From assembly GCA_000004985.1 (NCBI GenBank), contig GG738865.1: 64,000 nucleotides of DNA; one strand, 5' to 3'. Below the pieces are notes generated by a model. That model was not told the DNA's origin, ran no database searches, and saw nothing but the letters and a program-made list of their open reading frames with translations. Below, piece after piece: positions 2,639 through 60,805 of this stretch. The position numbers and the translations under genes are program-made. Within the stretch, counting starts at the first letter, position 1. Each line of letters begins with the position of its first letter. The DNA is from Naegleria gruberi. Lineage: Eukaryota.

Positions 2639-5340
2639 ATGCCACCACTGGATTTCTTGAGAAGACATCTTCAAAAAGGAGGAAGTAATAGTTCTTCTCC
2701 CGAACCATCAGACCAATCATCACCACAACGAATTTCTTCTATTCGAATTAAACATAAATCCACAATCAATGTACAATTAAAAATTGAAATTGAAACCATT
2801 TCACAACACATAACAATTAATGAACAAAACGTTACTTGCTTTCCTGGTGATTTGATAGAAAGTTTTATCAAGGAGAAGTTGTTAAATTTTCTACCAAATA
2901 ATTCAAACTCTACAACAGATTCCTATCGATCATTTTGTGAAAAGTATGCATTGTTTGTTGTGAGAGAGTTTGGTGATAAAGGTGTTGGAGGTGATTGGAT
3001 TTTTAATTATGGAATGTCATTTGCAGATTTAAATGTGAAAGGAGTTGTAAGTGATCATTGAAAACTTTTTATTAAATTTGAAAACATTAGTGTACAATAG
3101 AATGTGTACTTCAAAAGAAGAAGATACAAGTTCAATTCGGAGTTGACCAACAATTTGCAAAACCAACAGAAATTAATGAATTAAAAACAGTGGAGGAAAT
3201 TTCATCTGAAATTGCAAAATCATTCATGATAAAGAAGGAGTTTATGGCTGATTTTTCTTTGAAGGATAATTTGCAACAATGGTTAATTCCACAATTAACA
3301 CTCCGAGAACAAGGACAACAAGTGAATGACAAATCAAAACTTCAATTATCTAAAAAATATAATTTCACATATGACCAACTATTGGAAAATGATATTAAAC
3401 TAAATGCAGTTAGTTTATCATTAACATATAGTGAAACAAAGGAGAGATTCATGAATGGAAAACTCAATTACAATATTCAAGATAGAACTGAAAGAAATAT
3501 CATTGCTAGATTGGTTGCATTGTCTATTTTAGCAGAGGGACTTGACAGAAAGTACTACAAGAGAGTGGATGATGTTTCTAAATTCGAATCACTCGTACCT
3601 CCTCACTTTTATGCTGAAATTCAAGAAACTCAAAAGATGAAAACCAAAATGAGAAAAAAGTTCATCAAGAATTTACAAAGAAACAAGACCCTTAACATTG
3701 TCGATGCTCAATGTGAATATGTGAAATTGTGTTCACAACACCCATTCTTTAAACTCAACTTGTACAAGGTTGAATTTAAGCAAGAATCAAGTGCAGAGAG
3801 TACCAATCTTAGTGATTTTACTGAAATTCTATTTGGTATTGATGATCAAGGTTTATGTACTATACACTCTACGGACAGATGCATTACTTCGAGTACTCCA
3901 TTTACAAGTATTGTGACTTATTCTGCTACCAAAGACATTTTGAGAATTGTCATCAAACAACCAGAACCAATTCTAGAATCTACAATGGTTATCAAATCAC
4001 CTTTAGCTGAGGAAATTGAACTAGTCATTGCTGGTGCTATTGATTATTCAAATAGAAATATTTTCATGACTCCTCAAGTGAAGGATTTACTGGAGGATGT
4101 TCAAGGATCTGATCGAGTTAAAAAGACATCCTTTGCATTGCCAAGAGACGTACCAACAGATGACATTCAACTCTTACTTTCAGATAGAAATATTGTGGAG
4201 AAGGCACTTCAAGGATTGACAGAATATAATAGACAAGTCAAAACCAAATCAGGTCCTATTCAGGCACTTCTTGTTGAGAAACAAGAAGAAACCTCTGCAC
4301 AAAGAAAGAAAGTTATTGGACAGTATATGGAAGAATTGAGCAAAAAGGATCCAAATGATACTCTCAACAATGAAAACATTAATGTATTCAAAAAACCATT
4401 CGAATATTTGGAAATGTATGACCCTATCAAAAATACTTGTGAACTGATAGAAGAGTCCTACCTCAGATTGATTGAGGTTGAAATGGAGAGGAAAGCTAGA
4501 GAGACTGAAGTTAGCATATTGGAAAATATTTCCAAGGGTCTCATGACAGGAATGTCTGTTAATTCTATTGATTTGGAATCAACCAACTTAGATCAACAAA
4601 AGAATAACTTGTATCCAAAACAAGTTCTCGATATGAAGAGAGAATATGATATGGCATTTAAACAAATTCAAGTCGAGTCTGTTAATATGGAATCATTGAA
4701 GCAAATCAAACAAATGTTTGATCAGCAAGCTCAATATTTGTTACAATATGAAAAGTATTTGCACGACAAGTTTTTGAGACTTAAGGAAATGCCCACAACT
4801 GGAAGTGTTGAATCAACAGCTCCAAGTACCTTCACTTCTCTCAAGAAATTCCCTACTCCACCTGTACCATCATCCAATAACAACTCCTCAAGTGCAAACA
4901 CACCAACCATATCTACCACACCAAAACCAAGTGGTGAAACTCTTTCTCCAACAGCAAATCTTCCAAGAAAGATTTCTTCTAGCACTACACCTCCTGAACC
5001 ATCAACATTAAGAACAGCATCACCAACGAGTCGTAAAACTGTTTTTACTCCAACAAGTGCCAAGTCAACCACAACCGATTCCTCACCTCCAAACAATACT
5101 CAACCAACAAATTCTAATTCATCATCACCAATTGATTCATCTGCTCCATCAACAAATTCCACAACAGCTTCTGATCCATCAGGTAACAATTCATTTAGTG
5201 ATTTGAGATCCAGATTCCTCAAACCTGCAACACCCAACACTCCTCCACCCTCCAATGCACTAGCAGAAGAACGAAAGCAAGCCTTAAAGGGAAGAACATC
5301 AACAGTTCTTGAAGCCCTCTCCAGATTCGAGAGGAAATAA
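2639..5340 (+). CDS. FERM-domain protein (talin/kindlin-like: two ubiquitin-like lobes F0 and F1, then F2 and PH-like F3) with a long S/T/P/N-rich C-terminal tail. Proposed model join(2639..3046,3091..5340) with a 44-nt GTAAGT...TAG intron.
   Basis: ORF 2639-3061 encodes a ubiquitin-like fold (TINVQLKIEIETIS...). Downstream frame-1 ORF has no ATG until 3229 but is open from 3091. A perfect GTAAGT donor at 3047 and TAG acceptor at 3089-3090 join the two in phase 0. The downstream part has an F1-like KIQVQFGVDQQF, F2-like QCEYVKLCSQHPFFKLNLYKVEFK and a PH-like F3. Confidence 0.55.
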
Positions 5341-52107: not shown

Positions 52108-53885
52108 ATGTCAGATAGTACTGTTATTTCTGCAGCACTTCCTACTCAAAAGGATTTGACTAACTCTGAAGCCATCATGGAAATTTTAAAGAAGGAAAAT
52201 AGATTCCCATCAGATGAAGAAAATAAGAAAAGAGAAGAAGTTCTTGCAAAATTGGATGGCATTATTAAAGGATGGGTTAAACAAGTGTGCCTGAAACAGG
52301 TATGTTGCTATAAAGTGAATATAAAACTAAATTATTTAATAATAATAATAGGGTTTGTCTGAGGAATTTGTATCATCAGCTGGATCCAAGTTGGTAACTT
52401 TTGGTTCCTTCCGTTTGGGAGTACATGGTCCTGGTGCGGATATTGATACGTAAGTTTAATTTGAATAGCAACAGTAGTGACATTTCATAATTTAGATTGT
52501 GCATTGTTCCTAACATGGTTGAAAAACACCACTGTTTTACAGATTTGCATGATATTTTAAAACTAAGACCTGAAATTGCAGAACTTAAACCAGTTCCAGA
52601 TGCATATGTACCTTTGATTACCATGGTTTTTGATGGTGTAGAAATTGACTTGTTGTTTGCTAGATTATCTAGAACTGTTATTCCTGCTGATTTGGATATT
52701 TTGGATGAATCAAATTTGAAAGATGCAGATGATGAAACTCAACGTAGTTTGAACGGTCCTCGTGTTGCTGATCAAATTTTGAAACTAGTTCCAAATCAAG
52801 AAAATTTCAGAACTACCTTGAGATGTATTAAATTGTGGGCAACCAGAAGAGCAATTTATGGTAACATTGTAGGATATTTGGGAGGTGTTGCTTATGCCAT
52901 TTTAACAGCAAAGATTTGTCAAATGTATCCAAATGCTGCCCCTTCAACACTGTTAACAAAATTCTTTACCGTCTACCAACAATGGAACTGGGGAAAGGTA
53001 CCTGTATTATTAAGACCAATCGAGGAAGGAACTCTTAATTTTAAAGTTTGGAATCCAAAGCTTAATCCAAGAGATAAACAACACTTAATGCCAATCATTA
53101 CACCATCATATCCATGTATGAATTCCACATTTAACGTTTCAAAAACAACTTTAAAGGATATGAAGAATGAATTTGAAAGAGGAGCATCTATTACACAAAA
53201 GGCAGAGAATGGACTTGAAAATTGGGAAACTTTATTTGAAGCAACAGACTTCTTTGTAAGATATAGTAATTACTTACAAGTTGAAATTAATACATCAAAC
53301 GAGGTTGACCACCTTAAATGGATTGGTTTCATTCAATCTAAAGTAAGATTTCTTATTCCAAAGTTAGAAGCAGTTCCTGGATTAACGATCCATATTTATC
53401 CAGACTATTTCCACAATAACCAAGGAGGAGCTTTTTCTTCATATTTTTATATAGGATTAGAATATAAACAAACCAAACCAGGAGAAGGATCAGTAGTAAA
53501 TCTTGCATCTTGTATCGCTGAATTTGAGGAATTACTTACTTGGCCAGATAAGAATGAAAATATGGAAAAACCAAAGATTCAACCAATCAAGAGAAATGCA
53601 ATTCCAGAATTTGTTATTTCAAAGAAGAAAAAGAAGGAACTCATGAAAAAGAATAAGGCACAAAAGAGAAAGGCAGAACAAGACGACGAAAAGAACAAAC
53701 CAAGTGAAGAAACGGAAGCTACTGCAACAGCCACAACTTCGACAGATGGAACTACAGAGAATGGTGAGTCCGCAGCAAAGAAGGCAAAGGTAGACGAAAC
53801 TCCAGCAGTAAAGAGAGAACATAAGGTTGAACTTTTATTGGGTGATGACGATGACGATTTACTTGCTTTGTACTCAAAAAAATAA
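52108..53885 (+). CDS. Poly(A) polymerase (nucleotidyltransferase domain, central domain, RNA-binding domain, then an acidic K/E-rich tail); join(52108..52299,52352..52449,52496..53885)
   Basis: Catalytic motif KLVTFGSFRLGVHGPGADIDT|LCIVP spans intron 2. VPDAYVPLITMVFDGVEIDLLFARLS matches canonical PAP. The introns are 52 nt (GTATGT...AATAG) and 46 nt (GTAAGT...TTTAG) with consistent phases. Confidence 0.88.
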
Positions 53886-53920
53886 ATAAAGTTTGTTAGT
53901 GTTTTCAACAAGAGAGGATT

Positions 53921-56900
53921 TTATTTGTCATCCAAGTCCACATTTTGAGCATCTAGATTAATGTTTTCAGATTTCGATTTTCCAAAGAATAATTCTTTTA
54001 AACTGAATGTTGACCTCCTGTGAGTTGAGGCAGTGGATGGTTTCCGTATTGTTGCATATTTTGAGGCAGAGGAACCTGAGCTGTCCAACTCTACATCTAA
54101 TTCTGCTGTCGAACCTGGTGATGAGAAATATTCGTCTTCCTCAGTCTTCTTTGGTTTTGATCCGCCTCCTCTTAATGGTCTTCTTACCTTAGAAGAAGTA
54201 TTTTCAATTTCGATTTGTGGTGGTGGTACTGTTACAATTTTGGTATGCTTCAAAATATCAAGTTCTCTTTTGAGCGTGTTGATAGTATCATTCAATTTGG
54301 ACCTTTCTTCGACGAACATGTCTGCCTCTTTTTTGGCTTTTCTTGTTTGTTCAACAATTATATTGTTAAGCTCTGTAAGTCTTTCTTCCTTCATTCTGAT
54401 CTTCTTCTCAGCCAGTGATAATTTCATTATAATCTCAGAGTTTTCATTATGAACTTGTGAAAGGTTAACAGTTACTTGTTCCAAGTTTCTTTCTAACCAT
54501 TCAATTTTTCTTGAATATTTCTTGATAATATTTTGATTAGATAAAGTATTGTACTTGTCTGTAATTTCATCTAGTTGTACTTCTAGTTCAATAACTTTAT
54601 CAACTCTGTTTGATAAATCTTCGAGAAGGTTATCTCTTTCAGATTTCAGATTCTTGTTGGTAACTTCCAGTTCTCTTATTCTTTCTAAAGCTTCACTAAG
54701 CCTTTCACTTTCTGGAACTTGAGTAAAAACTGATGAAGGTGCTTCTTCATTGGTTACAACAGGTTCTGTAAAGTAATCCGAGTCATCAATAGCAGTTGGT
54801 GTTGGTGGAATTTGAAGTACTACTTCTTGTGGAGGAGATGGCAGCATGAACTCTGCTTCATTGAAATCAGTGTCACCAGTTTCATCACCATCATCATCAG
54901 AATCGTCGTCAGATTCGTCCATTTCTTCTTGGATATTCTTTAAATCAGTTTTAATTTTTCTCAAAGTTAAGAAAGACTCTCTTCTCTTTCTCAATCTGTC
55001 TCTGTCTGATTCCTTTTTAGCGGTCTTTGTTATCTTTTTGAACTTTTTATCAATAAAGTTCATTACAAGCTCAAGGTCTGGATCGTCTTGTTTGGATTGA
55101 AGTGTTAAGAGTTGGATTTTTGATTCATTGAGTTGCCTACAGTAATGTTCCATTTGCTTCTTGTGTTCTTCAACTTCAGAATCTTTTTCTTTGACCACAT
55201 ACTCCAACTTTCTGCGCTCTTCTTTCATAGAGTCTTTCACTTCCTGGCATTCATTGGTTTTTAGTTGAATAATTTTCTCTAAATCATTTCTATAACTTTC
55301 AGCTGTTGCCAAGTAGTCAGATTTCTCTTTGAGCTGTTCTTTTAAGATGTGAATGTCTTCCAATGATTGCGCACCCTCTTCTTTAGCTTGATTAATTTCA
55401 TCCTTCAATTGAATGTTTTCATCCATAATCCTATTTCTGAATTGTTTTTCTTCTACCAATTCCTTCTCCAAAAGTACACACTTCTCCCTGTATTTGGAAA
55501 GGGTAGGTAAAAGTTCGTTAAGCTTTTCTTCAAGTTCTTGACGCTTTAGATCTGCTTCCTTTGCGTCAGATTCTTTGGATGTAGTTTCAGTTGGATCTTG
55601 AATTTTGATTTCGGTTTTGATTCCTCCTTTCTTGTAAATTTTCAGTTCTTCTTCTATACCATTTGTATATTCCTTCAACTCTCTGATTTCCTCCTTAGCT
55701 TTGTCCAATAATTTCTGAAGCTCCTTGGCAGAAAGTTCTCTATTTACCTTAGGCTTGTTCTTAATATTCTTAGCTCTAAAACCGAATCTAAGGGTGGAAA
55801 GTGTTTCATCCTCGTTATAGGAACTCATAGAACAGTTTATAATCAATGTTGTTCTAGAGTTACCTCCCAAAGAGTCTTGTAATAATCTTGTGAGTTTTGA
55901 ATCTCTGTATGGCACAAATTTGGACTATTTTCACAACATTAATATTATTTTGAAGTCTTAAACTTACCACACCATCTGTTAAGGCATTAATAACCATACC
56001 CAGTGCTGACAAGGATTTGTTAATATTCTTTGCTTCTTCAAGTGTTTGGCCTGATGCTCCGGTTTTCTTGACCTTTTCTGAACCAGCCAAATCTACCAAA
56101 AATAATTTACCAGTTTTTGAATCTAAATTAACCAAGTGCTTTTGTCCAATAGTGATAATAAAGATGCTGTGAGATCGTGAGCTTTCATCGTTCATTCCTT
56201 TGATCGAGTAAGATAATTAATATCTTTTAAACTTACTTGTAGAGGAAACAACACGATTTCCAGCTCCAACTTTCAATAAATTATACACTTCTTCCACACT
56301 TGTGACATATTCCTCAGTTGCTCCTTTAATATATACACCTCTTCCACTTTCTCTGTCTTCCTTAATCTTTAAATCTTGGTGATGTGCTATTCAAAGTTGT
56401 TAATACAATACTATTATAATTACTCAACATACGATCCAGTAAATCTCTTATTTTTTCCAAATAAATTTCAATATAAGATATTTGGATTGTAAACTCAATA
56501 TCAGGATCTGAATTTTCCACTCTATCAAATATTTCCTCAATCATTCTTGGAATTAATCCTTTCAAATTTGAATCAGTGCAATATCCCTTATGATCTTCAT
56601 TTGGTCCCATCATGGTATATGATTTACCTATAAGCAATTATTAGCATTTTCATGAAAGAACCAAAGTCAACATACCACTACCAGTTTGACCGTATACAAA
56701 TACAGTTCCCTATTAAGCGTTTAGTATTGTTTTATAAAACAACATCAACCTACGTTATATCCCTTAAAAATATCTAGAATGGATTTATAATGATGATGAA
56801 GAAGAATACATACCCTCAACAACAGGTTTTCCTACTACATTAAAAAGGTCACCCTGTTTGGAACCACTCTTGAAAATATGATCGAACGTAAAGTCATGCT

Positions 56901-57096
56901 TTCCGTTTTTGTTCTATTAAATCAAATGATGATGAATATTTTCTTCTCAAAATACAAAGATGATAATTACATTTAATTTACATGTTTTTCCATCAAAATC
57001 AACTACCTCTCCGCCACCCATCTGCTTTTCAAGCGTATTCAAGGGTCTAAAACGACAAACGACCTGAATATTACTTCCTCCAAATTCCTCTGTCAT
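53921..57096 (-). CDS. Kinesin-1 heavy chain (N-terminal motor domain in about 6 short exons, then a single-exon coiled-coil stalk and tail at 53921..55915)
   Basis: Motor motifs are spread over the minus-strand exons: [60 protein letters not shown]. The neck and stalk then start [29 protein letters not shown], followed by a long heptad coiled coil. ATG at 57096 (minus). Introns are about 40-105 nt with GTAAGT/GTATGT donors and were not all mapped exactly. Confidence 0.85.
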
Positions 57097-57364
57097 TTTT
57101 TTAAGGGTTGTTGGTTACGGAATTTACTTTGCTACGAAATTTTTCTAAGGAGTTGGAACAAGTCCATTCATCATCATAATTAATTTGATTTGGTTTGATG
57201 CTCAAAGTGTTAGTGTTGTAATAGAGAATATTCTCGAAATGAATTGTATCTCTGCCATGATGTGATTTGTCTGAACTGTTCCAATGTCGAATTTAATTTG
57301 CAGATTTTTCTGACATTCAATAATGTCTAGTTTTACAAATTGTAGTAAGAAAGATTCAGCTCTC

Positions 57365-58714
57365 TCAGAGGGATTGAGTTTTAGAACCTAAAATTACTGC
57401 TCGTTTAGCTCCTGTTACACTTGGGATATTGGAAACCCTCTTCTTTTCATAGAGATAGGCAAGGAGGGCAAATAACATTCCCTCTTTAGCATTAGAATCT
57501 AATGCTTGTCCGTCCTCAAGCTTTTCATGAGAATAGATTGAAATAGGTCTTTTAAAGGTAGAATTCAAGAGGTGAGAAAGTGTTTCCATTAAGAAAGAGT
57601 TCTTTTGGCCTCCACCTGCAACAATAACATCAAAATCATCGATATTCAACTTGTTGCAAACCATTTCATAAGCCTTTACAATGCTATAGGCAGTAAAGTC
57701 TGTAAATGTTCTAGCGACGATACAAAATAGTGGATCAGATTTGTTAGATGTTCTTAATTCCAAAGGTTCCAATAATTTCTCAACTTGATCTCTGCCAAAA
57801 AGTTCTCTTCCTGTAGTTTTTGGGAATGGCATTTCTAAATAATTTCCATAAATTTTCAATAGTTTGTCAAATAATGATGTATCGGCAGCAAATGTACTCC
57901 TAGCCATATCACCATTCTCATCCATTTGAAGTTCTCCACCAGAAATAACTCTAACGCAGTCATCAATTAAGGCATTTCCTGGACCAGTATCAAAAGAAAC
58001 TGTCAACGAAGAAGCATCTTCCACCTGAATATTTAGAGGAGGAACAAAGGTAACATTTCCAATTCCACCAATATTTTGGATTGCCCTCCACTTGGTTGGA
58101 TGCCTTAACATTAAAAAGTCAACTAGTAAAATTCATATGACAATTCTTTTTGAATTATAATACGTACATATGGAAGTCAATGGAGCACCTTGTCCACCCA
58201 GAGCTACATCACTAGTTCTGAAATTTGAAATAACTGGTAATCTTAAATATGCAGAAATTTCGCCAGGTTCTCCAATTTGTAATGTTGAACGAACTATAGA
58301 TTCGTCCAATGATTCACCTTCTCTGAATTTGTTACTTTCCACTTGATGATAAATAGTTTGACCATGGGATCCTATCACATCAATACTCTGCAAAGCAATA
58401 TTATTCTTTAAACAAGTATTTTCAATAGCTAATGCAAAATGCTTTCCAATCAAGGTATTCATTTCACAAAATTCCTTTGCACTCAATTGATTTGATCGCA
58501 TCAACTTGAAAATTCTATCTCTCATATTCGATTCCCAAGGAATTGATTCAAATGCTACTACTTTCATGATCGGAATGGGCAATTCATGATGTTCAATAAA
58601 TGTACTTCTTGTAGTAGTATCGTCACTAATTTCACAAATAACAACATCAATGGCATCAACTGATGTTCCAGAATTTACTCCAACACAAATTAATTTATCA
58701 TCACTCATTTTCAA
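57365..58714 (-). CDS. anmK: Anhydro-N-acetylmuramic acid kinase (AnmK/UPF0075, levoglucosan-kinase family)-like protein; complement(join(57365..58122,58168..58714)) with a 45-nt spliceosomal intron
   Basis: N-terminal GVNSGTSVDAIDVV (matches G-x-MSGTS-DGID), GSHGQTIYH, LQIGEPGEIS, GGQGAPL|TSIFD..LRHP (split by the intron), NIGGIGNV, FDTGPGNALID, PKTTGRELF, AGGGQKNSFLM. The intron GTACGT...TTTACTAG is in phase 1 and joins in frame. Confidence 0.85.
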
Positions 58715-58852
58715 GCTAATTCACCAATTAATTGTGTAAATAGTGTAGTACTATTAGAACAAGTAAATAATTAATTATTCAATATTTTGTGAAGATGCAA
58801 CTCTCCAATTTTTTGTAAAATTTTTAAAAAATAAAAAGAATCCGAATTAAAA

Positions 58853-60241
58853 ATGAACAGACTCATTCTCTGTGGCAATCATCACCAACATCATTGCCTG
58901 TTGTCGGCTTCTTTGAGTCGATCATCACCACTCTTAAAATTTGCTAGTAACAAGTGGAATATGAATAGGAATACAGGACGTAATTTTTCTTCTTCCTTCA
59001 GAGTTATGGATGTTACCTTCTCTCCGGAGGAATTACAAGTTTTGAAGGAATTGAGACAAAGTATGGATGCACCAGAACCAGAGAAGGATAATCGCGTGAA
59101 AAAAGGTTCTAAAGGAGACTTTTTACCTGATCCTGACTTTGATTATAGCAATCTTTCTCCTGATGAATTTCTTGAAGCCTTGAGAAATAAAAAACCAAGA
59201 GAAAATGAAGACGAACTCCAAGGTAGAGACTTGGAAAAGGATAAAAGAATGTTTGATTTACTTGAAGAATTGTTAAACAATCCAGAACTTGACCCAACTG
59301 AGGAACAAATTGAGGAACATAAAAGAAGAGCAACAAGATCTCTTTTGGAAATGGATGAAGACCAACTCACAAATGGACAATTACCAATTATTTCATATGA
59401 TGAATTGAATAAGAAATTTTATAGAAAGGTATATATTGAAGAAACACAAACAAAGGAAAATACTCCAGAATTCAGAGTTCGTATTGGTCAAGAACAACTT
59501 TTACGAACAACCACCAACAAGGTAGTAACAGTTCCATCAAAAGAAATTGCTGCTGTTGCTGCTGGAGAATGGGAATTGCAAGAAGAATATGTAAGACCTG
59601 CCACCCTTCCTTTCACAGAATTACTTTGCAGAATTGAGGATGTTAAACGTGAAATTGATTTCTCAGTTAGCTACAATATGAAGAAAACCATTCATGGATT
59701 TTTCGATGGAGAATTTGTTTGCTTACGTCAAGGAATGGGAGATGAAAAATTCACAAATTCAATCAAGGAACATTGGGATCCTCTTGTTCAATGGTTCAAT
59801 AAGGAATTTAACACAGAACTTGTAGTTCTTGGAGAAGATAGTAGTTTTGCTGATGATCCAGCACAAGAAGATGCTCGTATCAAGTTTATTGAACGTTATA
59901 CCACCTCCGAAGGTATAAGATTATTTAAAAAGACAGAAAGTGTAAAATATTTGTTTGACAGAATGTCACCATCTGGTTTGGTTTTATTGAATGCAATGGT
60001 TGAAGTTACAGGATCTGTAGTTATCGCATCTGCTTTATATGCTGGAAGAATTAATGCTAGACAAGCTGCATTGGCAACTCAATTACCAGTCAGAGAACAA
60101 ACAAATACTTTCGGATTAGTTATGGGTGAACATGATTTGCAATTTGCTGAACAATTTTGCAAGCTCTCAGCTTTGGAATTGCTTTTGGAAATTCATCCAC
60201 TTTCTAGAGACGTTTCTGATTCATATAGTAAGGTACTTTAA
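58853..60241 (+). CDS. ATP12: ATP12/ATPAF2 (F1-ATPase alpha-subunit assembly factor 2) with an N-terminal mitochondrial presequence
   Basis: KFYRKVYIEE...RVRIGQEQLLRTTTNKVVTVPSKEIAAVAAGEWELQEEYVRPATLPFTELLCRIED matches the ATP12 family core. The presequence-like N-terminus is MNRLILCGNHHQHHCLLSASLSRSS. Confidence 0.8.
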   Translation: MNRLILCGNHHQHHCLLSASLSRSSPLLKFASNKWNMNRNTGRNFSSSFRVMDVTFSPEELQVLKELRQSMDAPEPEKDNRVKKGSKGDFLPDPDFDYSNLSPDEFLEALRNKKPRENEDELQGRDLEKDKRMFDLLEELLNNPELDPTEEQIEEHKRRATRSLLEMDEDQLTNGQLPIISYDELNKKFYRKVYIEETQTKENTPEFRVRIGQEQLLRTTTNKVVTVPSKEIAAVAAGEWELQEEYVRPATLPFTELLCRIEDVKREIDFSVSYNMKKTIHGFFDGEFVCLRQGMGDEKFTNSIKEHWDPLVQWFNKEFNTELVVLGEDSSFADDPAQEDARIKFIERYTTSEGIRLFKKTESVKYLFDRMSPSGLVLLNAMVEVTGSVVIASALYAGRINARQAALATQLPVREQTNTFGLVMGEHDLQFAEQFCKLSALELLLEIHPLSRDVSDSYSKVL

Positions 60242-60343
60242 ATATTTATTTGAGGCGAATAAATTTTAATTTTGTAATTTGCGTTTCAATTTTATTTGCA
60301 TGTATTTGTTGCACATAAATGAATTTTCTACTAAAAATTGGAA

Positions 60344-60805
60344 ATGATAAAAATAAAATCAACCAAAAAAATGCCTCCACACACAACCACAGATTCCCAA
60401 CCTACTTTCACGGATACCCTATCGCAGCAGCCTATTCCTTCCAAAACTCAATCAGCTCTCTATCAAATATTTGAAAGAAACCGACTAGAAATGACAATCA
60501 AAGATATAAATCTTGATTTTGTTGATCAAGTTGAAGTCAAAACAAGTGAACAAACAGCAAAACTGGAATATACAGCTGGAGTGAGTGTGATCGTCAAGCT
60601 AGTCTATGATAAGTACAATTCTCATGAGCAATTAGGGTATGGAATTTCAAAGGGTGACAGTCGTCCAAAGGCTGTTTTACAAGCAAAACAATTGGCTATT
60701 GACGATGCATCCAATAGATGCGCCAAAATGTTTGGCGATATTCAGAGATGGCATCCTTATTTGATGGCTAAACGAAAGTCGAATACTTCCTCAATTAATT
60801 ATTAA
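60344..60805 (+). CDS. Rad52/Rad22-family single-strand annealing protein-like mini-protein, about 153 aa
   Basis: SVIVKLVYDKYNSHEQLGYGISKGDSRPKAVLQAKQLAIDDASNRCAKMFG aligns with the Rad52 N-terminal core (...[41 protein letters not shown]). It is much shorter than canonical Rad52. ATG at 60344. Confidence 0.55.
   Translation: MIKIKSTKKMPPHTTTDSQPTFTDTLSQQPIPSKTQSALYQIFERNRLEMTIKDINLDFVDQVEVKTSEQTAKLEYTAGVSVIVKLVYDKYNSHEQLGYGISKGDSRPKAVLQAKQLAIDDASNRCAKMFGDIQRWHPYLMAKRKSNTSSINY

What the first reader, a model, noticed from the sequence alone, without database searches (positions are those of the whole stretch)
57365..58714. Bacterial-type AnmK kinase gene carrying a spliceosomal intron
AnmK recycles 1,6-anhydro-MurNAc from peptidoglycan in bacteria. 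The related eukaryotic enzymes I know of are fungal levoglucosan kinases. Here every AnmK signature motif is present, and the gene is interrupted by a 45-nt GTACGT...AG intron that splits the GGQGAPL/TSIFD motif in phase 1. That argues it is a bona fide nuclear gene, likely acquired horizontally and since domesticated, rather than bacterial contamination. It sits 138 bp head-to-head with ATP12.
Basis: partly seen in the sequence, partly recalled or inferred. Interest (0 to 1): 0.7.

Follow-up and report, generated by a model that had tools for sequence, protein, structure and literature searches.

The report
Naegleria gruberi AnmK-family sugar kinase gene
This is the already catalogued Naegleria gruberi gene for a bacterial-type anhydro-sugar kinase (AnmK family), a genuine nuclear gene with one small intron that most likely helps the amoeba use cell-wall sugars from the bacteria it eats; it is real but already known.

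Summary
On the minus strand, exon 1 (58708-58168), a 45-nt GTACGT...TAG intron (58167-58123, phase 1, with an in-frame TGA) and exon 2 (58122-57365) encode a 432-aa full-length AnmK-family protein. All catalytic motifs are present.

The window is Naegleria gruberi NEG-M. The spliced protein is residue-for-residue RefSeq XP_002677831.1 (UniProt D2VDZ8), so the reference annotation already uses this intron. [quoted passage not shown] Its downstream partner, the GKRP/MurQ-type etherase, has reported activity.

The gene is native:
- Its codon usage and GC match its neighbours.
- Its intron resembles the neighbouring kinesin introns.
- Kinesin-AnmK-ATP12 synteny is kept in N. lovaniensis, N. fowleri and Willaertia.

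The heterolobosean proteins form a clade with other protist sequences. Their nearest bacterial relatives are Chloroflexota (Caldilineae/Anaerolineae) AnmKs, not fungal levoglucosan kinases. Intron positions differ between species, which suggests an intronless ancestor with later gains.

The parts
58168..58708 (-). AnmK exon 1 (codons 1-180 plus the first base of codon 181). It encodes the N-terminal ATP-binding motif SGTSVDAID, then GSHGQT and GGQGAPL.
   Evidence: Sequence and translation. The spliced product is identical to XP_002677831.1.
58123..58167 (-). 45-nt spliceosomal intron, GTACGT...TTTTACTAG, phase 1, 22% GC, containing an in-frame TGA.
   Evidence: It is identical in a second N. 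gruberi-like strain, L004. Its size, splice sites and GC resemble the four kinesin introns next door. There is no other copy in the window.
57365..58122 (-). AnmK exon 2 (rest of codon 181 to codon 432, plus the TGA stop). It encodes NIGGIGN, FDTGPGN, PKTTGRE, GGG..N and KE.
57989..57991 (-). Codon for Asp225. This is the predicted general base and is equivalent to P. aeruginosa AnmK Asp182.
   Evidence: It aligns with the D of FDCGPGN in 8bre and of FDTGPGN in LGK. It is invariant in 71 sequences. The role of Asp182 is taken from PMC10570956.
57482..57484 (-). Codon for Glu394. This is the predicted Mg2+/ATP ligand and is equivalent to P. aeruginosa AnmK Glu326.
   Evidence: Alignment. The role of Glu326 is taken from PMC10570956.
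58709..58852 (.). 144-bp AT-rich spacer between the divergent AnmK and ATP12 start codons. It is presumed to be a bidirectional promoter region.
   Evidence: The head-to-head arrangement is also seen in Willaertia magna, with an 83-bp spacer. Promoter function is inferred.
58853..60241 (+). Neighbouring ATP12 gene (mitochondrial F1-ATPase assembly factor), a single ORF of 462 aa.
   Evidence: Pfam PF07542, E = 1.9e-23. It is syntenic in L001, L003 and L004.
55860..57096 (-). 5' part of the neighbouring kinesin gene, downstream of AnmK on the same strand. It has four introns of 57, 40, 44 and 48 nt in its first ~470 nt.
   Evidence: Pfam Kinesin, E = 4.6e-39. It is syntenic in L001, L002 and L004.

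Best explanation
This is NAEGRDRAFT_67098, the single nuclear AnmK-family gene of Naegleria gruberi. An ancestor of Naegleria and Willaertia, or an earlier protist, acquired a bacterial AnmK gene of the type now found in Chloroflexota.

The gene has since become fully native:
- It has host codon usage.
- It occupies a stable chromosomal slot between kinesin and ATP12.
- It has lineage-specific spliceosomal introns.

[quoted passage not shown] Asp225 would activate a water molecule to open the 1,6-anhydro ring, while the gamma-phosphate of Mg-ATP (held by Glu394 and the N-terminal SGTSxD loop) is transferred to O6. The product is MurNAc-6-phosphate.

The N. gruberi GKRP/MurQ-type etherase would then convert MurNAc-6-phosphate to GlcNAc-6-phosphate and D-lactate. 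In this way peptidoglycan sugars from phagocytosed bacteria would feed into central metabolism.

What is shown: the gene structure, family membership, fold, conserved catalytic residues, nuclear residence and synteny.
What is inferred: the substrate, the cellular location, the pathway coupling, and the donor and timing of the transfer.
For: Gene model and family:
- The model restores a full-length AnmK match: Pfam E = 1.2e-71.
- PDB sequence hits are LGK 5.9e-57, Shewanella AnmK 1.3e-42 and P. aeruginosa AnmK 1e-23.
- The predicted structure has pLDDT 87.5 and pTM 0.89. Its top Foldseek hits are LGK and AnmK only, with TM 0.77-0.91.
- The spliced protein equals XP_002677831.1 / D2VDZ8.
- The window is N. 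gruberi.

Native character:
- GC is 35.2%, GC3 is 24.1% and the CAI-like index is 0.732. The 13 neighbouring genes range from 0.66 to 0.755.
- The intron resembles the kinesin introns.
- A second strain, 99.3% identical, keeps the frame and the intron.
- Synteny is conserved in N. lovaniensis, N. fowleri and W. magna.

Ancestry:
- After the heteroloboseans (52-58% identity) and eukaryote-contig metagenome sequences (42-48%), the best hits are Chloroflexota AnmKs at about 38-42%.
- In the NJ tree, Heterolobosea has 100% bootstrap support. Heterolobosea plus the environmental sequences has 91% (three of those six are on eukaryote-like contigs).
- Adding the dictyostelid group and the Caldilineae clade gives 57%. 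The fungal LGK clade is separate; it is sister to the protists in only 2.5% of replicates.
- The dictyostelid homologue also has Caldilineaceae as its nearest bacteria.

Substrate:
- At 17 positions that separate fungal LGKs from bacterial AnmKs, N. gruberi has the bacterial state at 14 and the LGK state at 1.

Pathway context from the literature:
- AnmK is listed under 'Bacteria digestion' for N. gruberi, N. fowleri and N. lovaniensis (PMC9928731).
- The N. gruberi GKRP homologue has MurNAc-6-P etherase activity (Veiga-da-Cunha 2009, as cited in PMC7052976 and a 2026 bioRxiv preprint).
Against: - No enzyme assay exists for any protist AnmK.
- The protein scores 349.9 bits on the best NCBIfam AnmK equivalog (NF007148, cut-off 387). 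The proven levoglucosan kinase scores higher on the same model (371.6). Profile scores therefore cannot assign the substrate.
- Eukaryotic lysozymes release reducing MurNAc, not 1,6-anhydro-MurNAc. The supply of the presumed substrate in a phagosome is thus limited to glycan-chain ends and the prey's own turnover products (established knowledge plus inference).
- The tree is neighbour-joining on Kimura distances, and deep nodes have only 35-57% support. The donor phylum, and whether there was one transfer or several, remain uncertain.
- No transcript evidence was available here.
Confidence: 0.72

Rival explanations
1. The enzyme is a kinase for levoglucosan or another anhydro-sugar (as in fungi) rather than an anhMurNAc kinase. 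It would let a soil amoeba use 1,6-anhydro-sugars from burnt or decaying biomass.
For: - The best solved-structure hit by sequence and by fold is Lipomyces levoglucosan kinase.
- Fungal proteins annotated as AnmK show levoglucosan kinase activity (PMC9476349).
- The NCBIfam AnmK equivalog cut-off is not reached.
- The supply of anhMurNAc in a phagotroph is limited (inference).
Against: - Identity to LGK is only about 33%, against 41-46% to Chloroflexota AnmKs.
- N. gruberi has only 1 of the 17 LGK-specific residue states and 14 of the 17 bacterial AnmK states.
- It is not in the fungal LGK clade.
- The genome has a MurNAc-6-P etherase with reported activity, which needs a supplier of MurNAc-6-P.
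Confidence: 0.15
2. The gene is an ancient eukaryotic gene inherited vertically and lost many times, not a horizontal acquisition.
For: - Homologues occur in several eukaryotic supergroups: Heterolobosea, Dictyostelia, Fungi, ciliates and unidentified eukaryotic contigs.
- The protist sequences tend to cluster together. The core has 91% support, and adding the dictyostelid group gives 35%.
Against: - The distribution is very patchy.
- Both the protist group and the fungal LGK clade nest among Chloroflexota-type bacterial sequences rather than forming one eukaryotic clade. Protists plus fungi are sisters in 2.5% of replicates.
- No intron position is shared between lineages, and one Naegleria-like relative has none over residues 70-429. 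This fits an intronless ancestor.
Confidence: 0.08
3. The locus is a decaying pseudogene, or the intron is retained, so no full-length enzyme is made.
For: The intron contains an in-frame stop. Prokaryote-style gene callers split the gene into two ORFs. No transcript data were examined here.
Against: - The splice sites are canonical, and splicing exactly restores a motif conserved in all homologues.
- All catalytic residues are intact.
- Orthologues in four species across a deep divergence are intact.
- A second strain differs by 5 synonymous changes, 6 mostly conservative changes and one in-frame codon deletion. It has no frameshift or stop.
Confidence: 0.03
4. The sequence is bacterial contamination or an assembly chimera.
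For: The family is overwhelmingly bacterial: 7235 homologous clusters, mostly prokaryotic.
Against: - The gene is embedded in an 820-kb N. gruberi scaffold.
- Its neighbours are eukaryotic and contain introns.
- Its codon usage is native.
- It has a spliceosomal intron.
- The same locus is found in an independent assembly.
- It is syntenic in three other genomes.
Confidence: 0.01

Closest known systems
[quoted passage not shown]
   Same: - Full-length domain and two-domain ASKHA fold (TMt 0.89-0.91).
- Catalytic Asp and Glu, and all nucleotide-binding motifs.
- 14 of the 17 residue states that distinguish bacterial AnmKs from fungal LGKs.
- Best-scoring NCBIfam model is the same as for Caldilineae/Anaerolineae AnmKs.
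   Different: - Encoded in a eukaryotic nucleus with a spliceosomal intron.
- About 40% identity at most.
- Heterolobosea-specific insertion at residues ~123-139.
- Score is below the curated equivalog cut-off.
- Presumably serves catabolism of prey cell wall rather than recycling of the cell's own wall.
Fungal levoglucosan kinase (Lipomyces starkeyi LGK, 4YH5/4ZLU) and the fungal 'AnmK-like' clade
   Same: - Eukaryotic, intron-era members of PF03702.
- Same fold (TM 0.77-0.79) and same catalytic residues.
- Also derived from the NF007148-like branch.
   Different: - About 33% identity.
- A separate, tight clade with 100% bootstrap support.
- N. gruberi lacks 16 of the 17 LGK-specific residue states, for example GRQGAPL against GGQGAPL, and VET against TGA near the C-terminus.
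AnmK orthologues of other protists: Naegleria fowleri and N. lovaniensis, Willaertia magna, dictyostelids (Tieghemostelium, Polysphondylium), and LGT-derived anmK in anaerobic ciliates
   Same: - Orthologous and syntenic within Heterolobosea at 52-58% identity.
- Same inferred role in digesting bacterial cell wall.
   Different: - Intron positions and numbers differ in every lineage.
- N. lovaniensis and N. fowleri have an extra gene between AnmK and ATP12.

Membership tests
AnmK/LGK anhydro-sugar kinase family (Pfam PF03702) | Full-length match to the family profile above the gathering score | tested here: met
   242.2 bits against a cut-off of 24, covering profile positions 4-365 of 367.
AnmK/LGK anhydro-sugar kinase family (Pfam PF03702) | Two-domain ASKHA fold like solved AnmK and LGK structures | tested here: met
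   The AlphaFold model has pLDDT 87.5 and pTM 0.89. The top 24 Foldseek PDB hits are all LGK or AnmK (E 1e-24 to 8e-34, TM 0.66-0.91). The next family, TsaD/Kae1, is at 4e-9.
AnmK/LGK anhydro-sugar kinase family (Pfam PF03702) | Catalytic general-base Asp (PaAnmK Asp182) and Mg/ATP Glu (PaAnmK Glu326), plus the N-terminal SGTSxDGxD phosphate loop | tested here: met
   Asp225, Glu394 and S13-G14-T15-S16-x-D18 are conserved. Asp225 and Glu394 are invariant, or differ in at most one sequence, across 71 aligned sequences. Residue roles are from PMC10570956.
Bacterial AnmK equivalog (NCBIfam NF007148 and siblings) | Score at or above the curated equivalog cut-off | tested here: not met
   349.9 bits against a cut-off of 387. 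Chloroflexota AnmKs score 424-449. The eukaryote-contig relatives P0006 and P0008 score 413 and 396. The proven LGK scores 371.6, so the cut-off does not separate substrates.
Bacterial AnmK equivalog (NCBIfam NF007148 and siblings) | Residue states typical of bacterial AnmKs at positions where fungal LGKs differ | tested here: met
   14 of 17 positions have the bacterial state, 1 has the LGK state and 2 have another state. This shows retention of ancestral states. It is not proof of substrate.
Bacterial AnmK equivalog (NCBIfam NF007148 and siblings) | ATP-dependent conversion of 1,6-anhydro-MurNAc to MurNAc-6-phosphate | not testable with these tools
   This needs an enzyme assay. Indirect support comes from reported MurNAc-6-P etherase activity of the N. 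gruberi GKRP homologue.
Fungal levoglucosan kinase clade | Phylogenetic placement inside the fungal LGK clade | tested here: not met
   The fungal clade has 100% bootstrap support and excludes Naegleria. A sister relationship appears in 2.5% of 200 NJ replicates. Identity is 33%.
Fungal levoglucosan kinase clade | LGK-specific invariant residues | tested here: not met
   Only 1 of 17 is shared.
Spliceosomal (GT-AG) intron | GT...AG boundaries, with removal restoring the frame and a conserved motif | tested here: met
   GTACGT...TAG. The spliced product reads GGQGAPLTSIFDFLMLRHP, which is collinear with all homologues and identical to the RefSeq model.
Spliceosomal (GT-AG) intron | Size and composition typical of introns of the same genome | tested here: met
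   The intron is 45 nt and 22% GC. The four neighbouring kinesin introns are 40-57 nt and 21-29% GC, with GTANKT...YAG boundaries (GTAATT, GTATGT, GTAGGT).
Spliceosomal (GT-AG) intron | Spliced transcript observed | not testable with these tools
   No RNA data are available here. The only support is agreement with the reference gene model.
Horizontally acquired bacterial gene in a eukaryote | Eukaryotic sequences nested within a bacterial clade with strong support | tested here: inconclusive
   The protist group plus Caldilineae has 57% NJ bootstrap support. The nearest named bacteria are consistently Chloroflexota, but at only 33-42% identity. No maximum-likelihood tree was possible.
Horizontally acquired bacterial gene in a eukaryote | Patchy eukaryotic distribution against a broad bacterial one | tested here: met
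   There are 7235 homologous clusters. The named hits in the lists examined were mostly bacterial. Named eukaryotes are limited to Naegleria, Willaertia, dictyostelids and fungi, plus ciliates in the literature.

The most novel reading that the evidence does not exclude
The most novel reading has three linked parts.

- The heterolobosean, dictyostelid and unidentified-eukaryote sequences would represent one old protist AnmK lineage captured from a Caldilineae-like Chloroflexota donor.
- That lineage would be the dedicated kinase partner of the GKRP/MurQ-type etherase. It would therefore be part of the ancestral pathway from which vertebrate glucokinase regulatory protein descends.
- Since capture it would have gained spliceosomal introns independently at five or more different positions, giving a small, datable series of intron gains in a transferred gene.
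Probability: 0.3. Interest if true: 0.45.

Novelty: already known. Interest (0 to 1): 0.22.

Why it matters
The finding matters little as a discovery. The gene model, its family and its presumed role in digesting bacterial cell wall are already in RefSeq/UniProt and in the Naegleria literature.

It remains a clean, well-documented example of a bacterial gene fully domesticated in a eukaryotic nucleus.

The side observations may interest people who study intron gain or the evolution of the MurQ/GKRP pathway:
- a protist-wide clade nearest to Chloroflexota AnmKs;
- different intron positions in each lineage;
- a conserved chromosomal slot.

No protist AnmK has been assayed, so the substrate question (anhMurNAc or another anhydro-sugar) is still open and easy to test.

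Tried and rejected
- **Exact look-up of the ATP12 ORF and of the two separate AnmK ORFs:** none is in the collection. Only the spliced product is.
- **Structural papers on AnmK and LGK** (PMC4646320, PMC3069431) and Veiga-da-Cunha 2009 (PMID 19671048): not held. No supplementary files are held for PMC10570956. Substrate-contact residues could therefore not be taken from the literature, and I used an alignment-based contrast instead.
- **First strain comparison:** it was out of register because of a 3-nt deletion in L004. It is discarded and replaced by a gapped alignment.
- **Contig look-ups:** P0253 has no contig on record. P0254 sits on an uninformative contig.
- **Second copy of the intron (introner-type origin) in the window:** only chance matches of 9-15 nt were found.
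- **Literature searches:** a search for levoglucosan kinase together with horizontal gene transfer in eukaryotes returned nothing. The only supplementary file of the Naegleria pangenome paper that names AnmK is Table S7 (metabolism); none of the other held files, the LGT table S4 presumably among them, mentions it.
- **Rejected readings:** contamination, pseudogene, and membership of the fungal LGK clade. Reasons are given under the rival explanations.
Full report
**1. What is in the sequence.**

The feature lies on the minus strand. A mechanical ORF scan gives two adjacent ORFs, 58714..58133 and 58111..57365.
- Reading from the ATG at 58708, exon 1 runs to 58168. It is 541 nt, i.e. 180 codons plus one base.
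- A 45-nt segment follows at 58167..58123: GTACGTATTATAATTCAAAAAGAATTGTCATATGAATTTTACTAG. It is 22% GC.
- Exon 2 runs from 58122 to the TGA at 57367..57365.

Removing the 45 nt joins ...GGQGAPLTSI to FDFLMLRHPTKWRAIQNIGGIGN... and gives a 432-aa protein. The intron is in phase 1 within codon F181. Its length is a multiple of three, but it carries an in-frame TGA, so retention would truncate the protein rather than shift the frame.

The one small correction concerns the spacer. The distance between the AnmK ATG and the ATP12 ATG (58853) is 144 bp.

**2. Which genome, and is the gene model known?**

Five long ORFs from the window are exact matches to Naegleria gruberi proteins on an 820,293-nt scaffold. 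One example is Lon protease XP_002677722.1.

The spliced 432-aa product is residue-for-residue identical to XP_002677831.1 / EFC45087.1 / UniProt D2VDZ8 (NAEGRDRAFT_67098), named 'predicted protein'. The reference annotation therefore already uses exactly this intron.

An independent metagenome contig, L004, is 99.3% identical over 8.1 kb and carries the same locus with an identical intron. Within the gene it differs by:
- 5 synonymous substitutions;
- 6 mostly conservative non-synonymous substitutions;
- one in-frame codon deletion;
- no frameshift or stop.

**3. Family, fold and catalytic residues.**

- Pfam PF03702 (AnmK) matches end to end, E = 1.2e-71.
- Sequence hits to solved structures are Lipomyces levoglucosan kinase (5.9e-57), Shewanella AnmK (1.3e-42) and P. 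aeruginosa AnmK (1e-23).
- An AlphaFold model has mean pLDDT 87.5 and pTM 0.89. Only residues 123-139, a heterolobosean insertion, have low confidence.
- The 24 best Foldseek matches in the PDB are exclusively LGK and AnmK chains, with TM 0.66-0.91. The next family, TsaD/Kae1, has far weaker E-values.
- The general-base Asp (P. aeruginosa Asp182) and the Mg/ATP Glu (Glu326) have roles described in PMC10570956. They correspond to Asp225 (57991..57989) and Glu394 (57484..57482).
- These two residues and the SGTSxD, GSHGQT, GGQGAPL, NIGGIGN, FDTGPGN, PKTTGRE and GGG..N motifs are conserved.

**4. Nuclear and native, not contamination.**

- The gene sits between a kinesin gene and ATP12. The kinesin gene is on the same strand and starts at 57096 (Pfam Kinesin 4.6e-39). 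ATP12 is divergent at 58853..60241 (Pfam ATP12 1.9e-23).
- The first ~470 nt of the kinesin gene contain four introns of 57, 40, 44 and 48 nt. They have GTAATT/GTATGT/GTAGGT 5' ends, YAG 3' ends and 21-29% GC. Removing them gives a continuous motor domain. The AnmK intron is of the same kind.
- AnmK has GC 35.2%, GC3 24.1% and a codon-adaptation-like index of 0.732. All three lie inside the ranges of 13 neighbouring genes (0.66-0.755 for the index).
- The kinesin-AnmK-ATP12 arrangement is conserved. It is found in N. lovaniensis (with an extra ~830-aa gene between AnmK and ATP12), in N. fowleri (kinesin and the extra gene are seen; ATP12 lies outside the fetched 9.8-kb locus) and in Willaertia magna (ATP12 head-to-head, 83-bp spacer).

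**5. Relatives and origin.**

Hits to the N. gruberi protein, in order of similarity:
- N. lovaniensis 58%, N. fowleri 55% and W. magna 52%.
- Metagenome sequences at 42-62% identity. Three of these sit on contigs with typically eukaryotic neighbours: BAR, GYF, F-box and cytochrome b5 in one case, and Misato, DNA polymerase lambda and acid sphingomyelinase in another.
- Chloroflexota (Anaerolineae, Caldilineaceae) AnmKs at about 38-42%.
- The dictyostelid Tieghemostelium at 38%.

A scan of one genome per prokaryotic species again put Chloroflexota first. Acidobacteriota, Bacillota and cyanobacteria were only slightly behind. The exhaustive representative search found 7235 homologous clusters.

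I built a neighbour-joining tree from 71 sequences and 371 columns, using Kimura distances and 200 bootstraps. The support values were:

| Grouping | Bootstrap |
|---|---|
| Heterolobosea | 100% |
| Heterolobosea + environmental sequences (three of six on eukaryote-like contigs) | 91% |
| That group + dictyostelid group | 35% |
| All of these + a Caldilineae clade | 57% |
| Fungal LGK clade (tight and separate) | 100% |
| Fungal LGK as sister to the protists | 2.5% |

One member of the Caldilineae clade sits on a plainly bacterial contig. A search seeded with the dictyostelid protein found Polysphondylium, two EukProt sequences and, again, Caldilineaceae as the nearest bacteria.

The method is crude and the deep nodes are weak. 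I therefore treat 'Chloroflexota-like donor' and 'single protist acquisition' as likely but unproven. The family's patchy eukaryotic distribution against a huge bacterial one supports horizontal origin.

**6. Introns as a record of domestication.**

Intron positions, in N. gruberi numbering, differ between lineages:

| Lineage | Position | Phase | Length |
|---|---|---|---|
| N. gruberi | codon 181 | 1 | 45 nt |
| N. lovaniensis and N. fowleri | between codons 196 and 197 | 0 | 144 and 201 nt |
| N. fowleri only | codon 285 | 1 | 178 nt |
| Willaertia | codon 350 | 1 | 48 nt |
| Environmental P0006/P0007 pair | between codons 11 and 12 | 0 | 31 nt (GTACGT...CTAAC...CAG, read in L005) |

An environmental Naegleria-like sequence, P0004 (62% identity), is one uninterrupted ORF across residues 70-429 and so lacks four of these introns. 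The simplest reading is an intronless ancestor with later independent gains. The N. gruberi intron would be specific to that lineage. No second copy of the intron sequence exists in the window.

**7. Function.**

Profile scores do not decide the substrate.
- The best NCBIfam AnmK equivalog (NF007148) gives 349.9 bits for N. gruberi, below its cut-off of 387.
- Chloroflexota AnmKs score 424-449 on the same model.
- The proven Lipomyces levoglucosan kinase scores 371.6.

A contrast of residues is more informative. There are 17 columns where eight fungal LGKs are invariant and at least 80% of bacterial AnmKs share a different residue. N. gruberi, and nearly always the other protists, has the bacterial state at 14 of these, the LGK state at 1 and another residue at 2. 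The protein has therefore not undergone the LGK-type changes.

The literature supplies the pathway context.
[quoted passage not shown] It cites earlier metabolic reconstructions (PMC9928731).
- The N. gruberi GKRP homologue is reported to have MurNAc-6-phosphate etherase activity. This is Veiga-da-Cunha et al. 2009, as cited in PMC7052976 and a 2026 bioRxiv preprint.
- Ciliates have acquired anmK and murQ by lateral transfer for amino-sugar degradation (PMC13198582).
- Fungi are already known to encode both LGK and AnmK-like kinases (PMC10570956 citing Dai 2015).

The best-supported mechanism is therefore this pathway: cytosolic AnmK converts 1,6-anhydro-MurNAc from digested prey wall to MurNAc-6-P, the etherase yields GlcNAc-6-P plus D-lactate, and these enter central metabolism.

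The N-terminus starts directly with the conserved first strand, so no targeting presequence is apparent. This is an inference.

One weak point is substrate supply. Lysozymes produce reducing MurNAc, so anhMurNAc would come only from glycan-chain ends and the prey's own turnover products. The substrate has not been shown.

**8. Verdict.**

The feature is already known:
- the identical gene model is in RefSeq and UniProt;
- the family assignment and the proposed role are in print;
- eukaryotic members of the family extend well beyond fungal LGKs.

The modest new points are the affinity of a protist-wide group to Chloroflexota-type AnmKs, the lineage-specific intron positions and the conserved chromosomal slot. 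Interest is low (0.22).

Noticed in passing
window 58123-58167; L001 4616-4759; L002 4631-4831 and 5096-5273; L003 2749-2796; L005 ~3745-3775: Orthologous AnmK genes carry introns at five different positions (N. gruberi numbering): between codons 11 and 12, in codon 181, between codons 196 and 197, in codon 285, and in codon 350. Only N. lovaniensis and N. fowleri share one. An environmental Naegleria-like ORF (P0004) has none across residues 70-429. This suggests independent intron gains in a gene that was originally intronless.
   Followed up: partly
L001 1306-3902; L002 1332-3866: N. lovaniensis and N. fowleri have an extra gene of about 830 aa on the side of AnmK where ATP12 lies in N. gruberi; in N. 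lovaniensis it sits between ATP12 and AnmK. It has a faint guanylate-cyclase hit in one species. N. gruberi and Willaertia have ATP12 and AnmK directly head-to-head.
   Followed up: no
window 58292-58342 (residues ~123-139 of the protein): There is a heterolobosean-specific insertion after the GSHGQTIYHQVESN strand, with pLDDT below 50. It is much longer in N. lovaniensis and N. fowleri. N. fowleri also has a ~25-residue insertion near residue 300. It may lie at or near the mobile beta-hairpin (residues 96-110) described for P. aeruginosa AnmK; this was not mapped here.
   Followed up: no
L004 (ENA ERZ929261 contig, 9155 nt), aligned to window 52363-60493: A metagenome contig is 99.3% identical to N. 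gruberi NEG-M over 8.1 kb, so a close N. gruberi strain is present in that sample. Prokaryote-style gene calling there splits AnmK into two proteins at the intron (190 aa and 248 aa). It also fragments the kinesin gene.
   Followed up: partly
window 56628-56970 (minus strand): The first ~470 nt of the kinesin gene hold four introns of 40-57 nt. This is an unusually dense run, which shows how fragmentary mechanical ORF lists are for this genome.
   Followed up: partly
P0132 (Lipomyces LGK) against NCBIfam NF007148: The experimentally proven levoglucosan kinase scores 371.6 bits on an AnmK 'equivalog' model with a cut-off of 387. That is higher than the Naegleria proteins (346-356). Two eukaryote-contig relatives exceed the cut-off (413 and 396). 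The fungal LGK clade seems to derive from the same Chloroflexota-like AnmK subtype, and the model cannot separate substrates.
   Followed up: partly
L005, L006, L007 (metagenome contigs): Unidentified eukaryotes at 38-40% GC carry AnmK genes 42-48% identical to the Naegleria gene. Their neighbours include BAR/GYF, F-box, cytochrome b5, Misato, DNA polymerase lambda and acid sphingomyelinase. Their identity is unknown; they could be other heteroloboseans or other amoebae.
   Followed up: no
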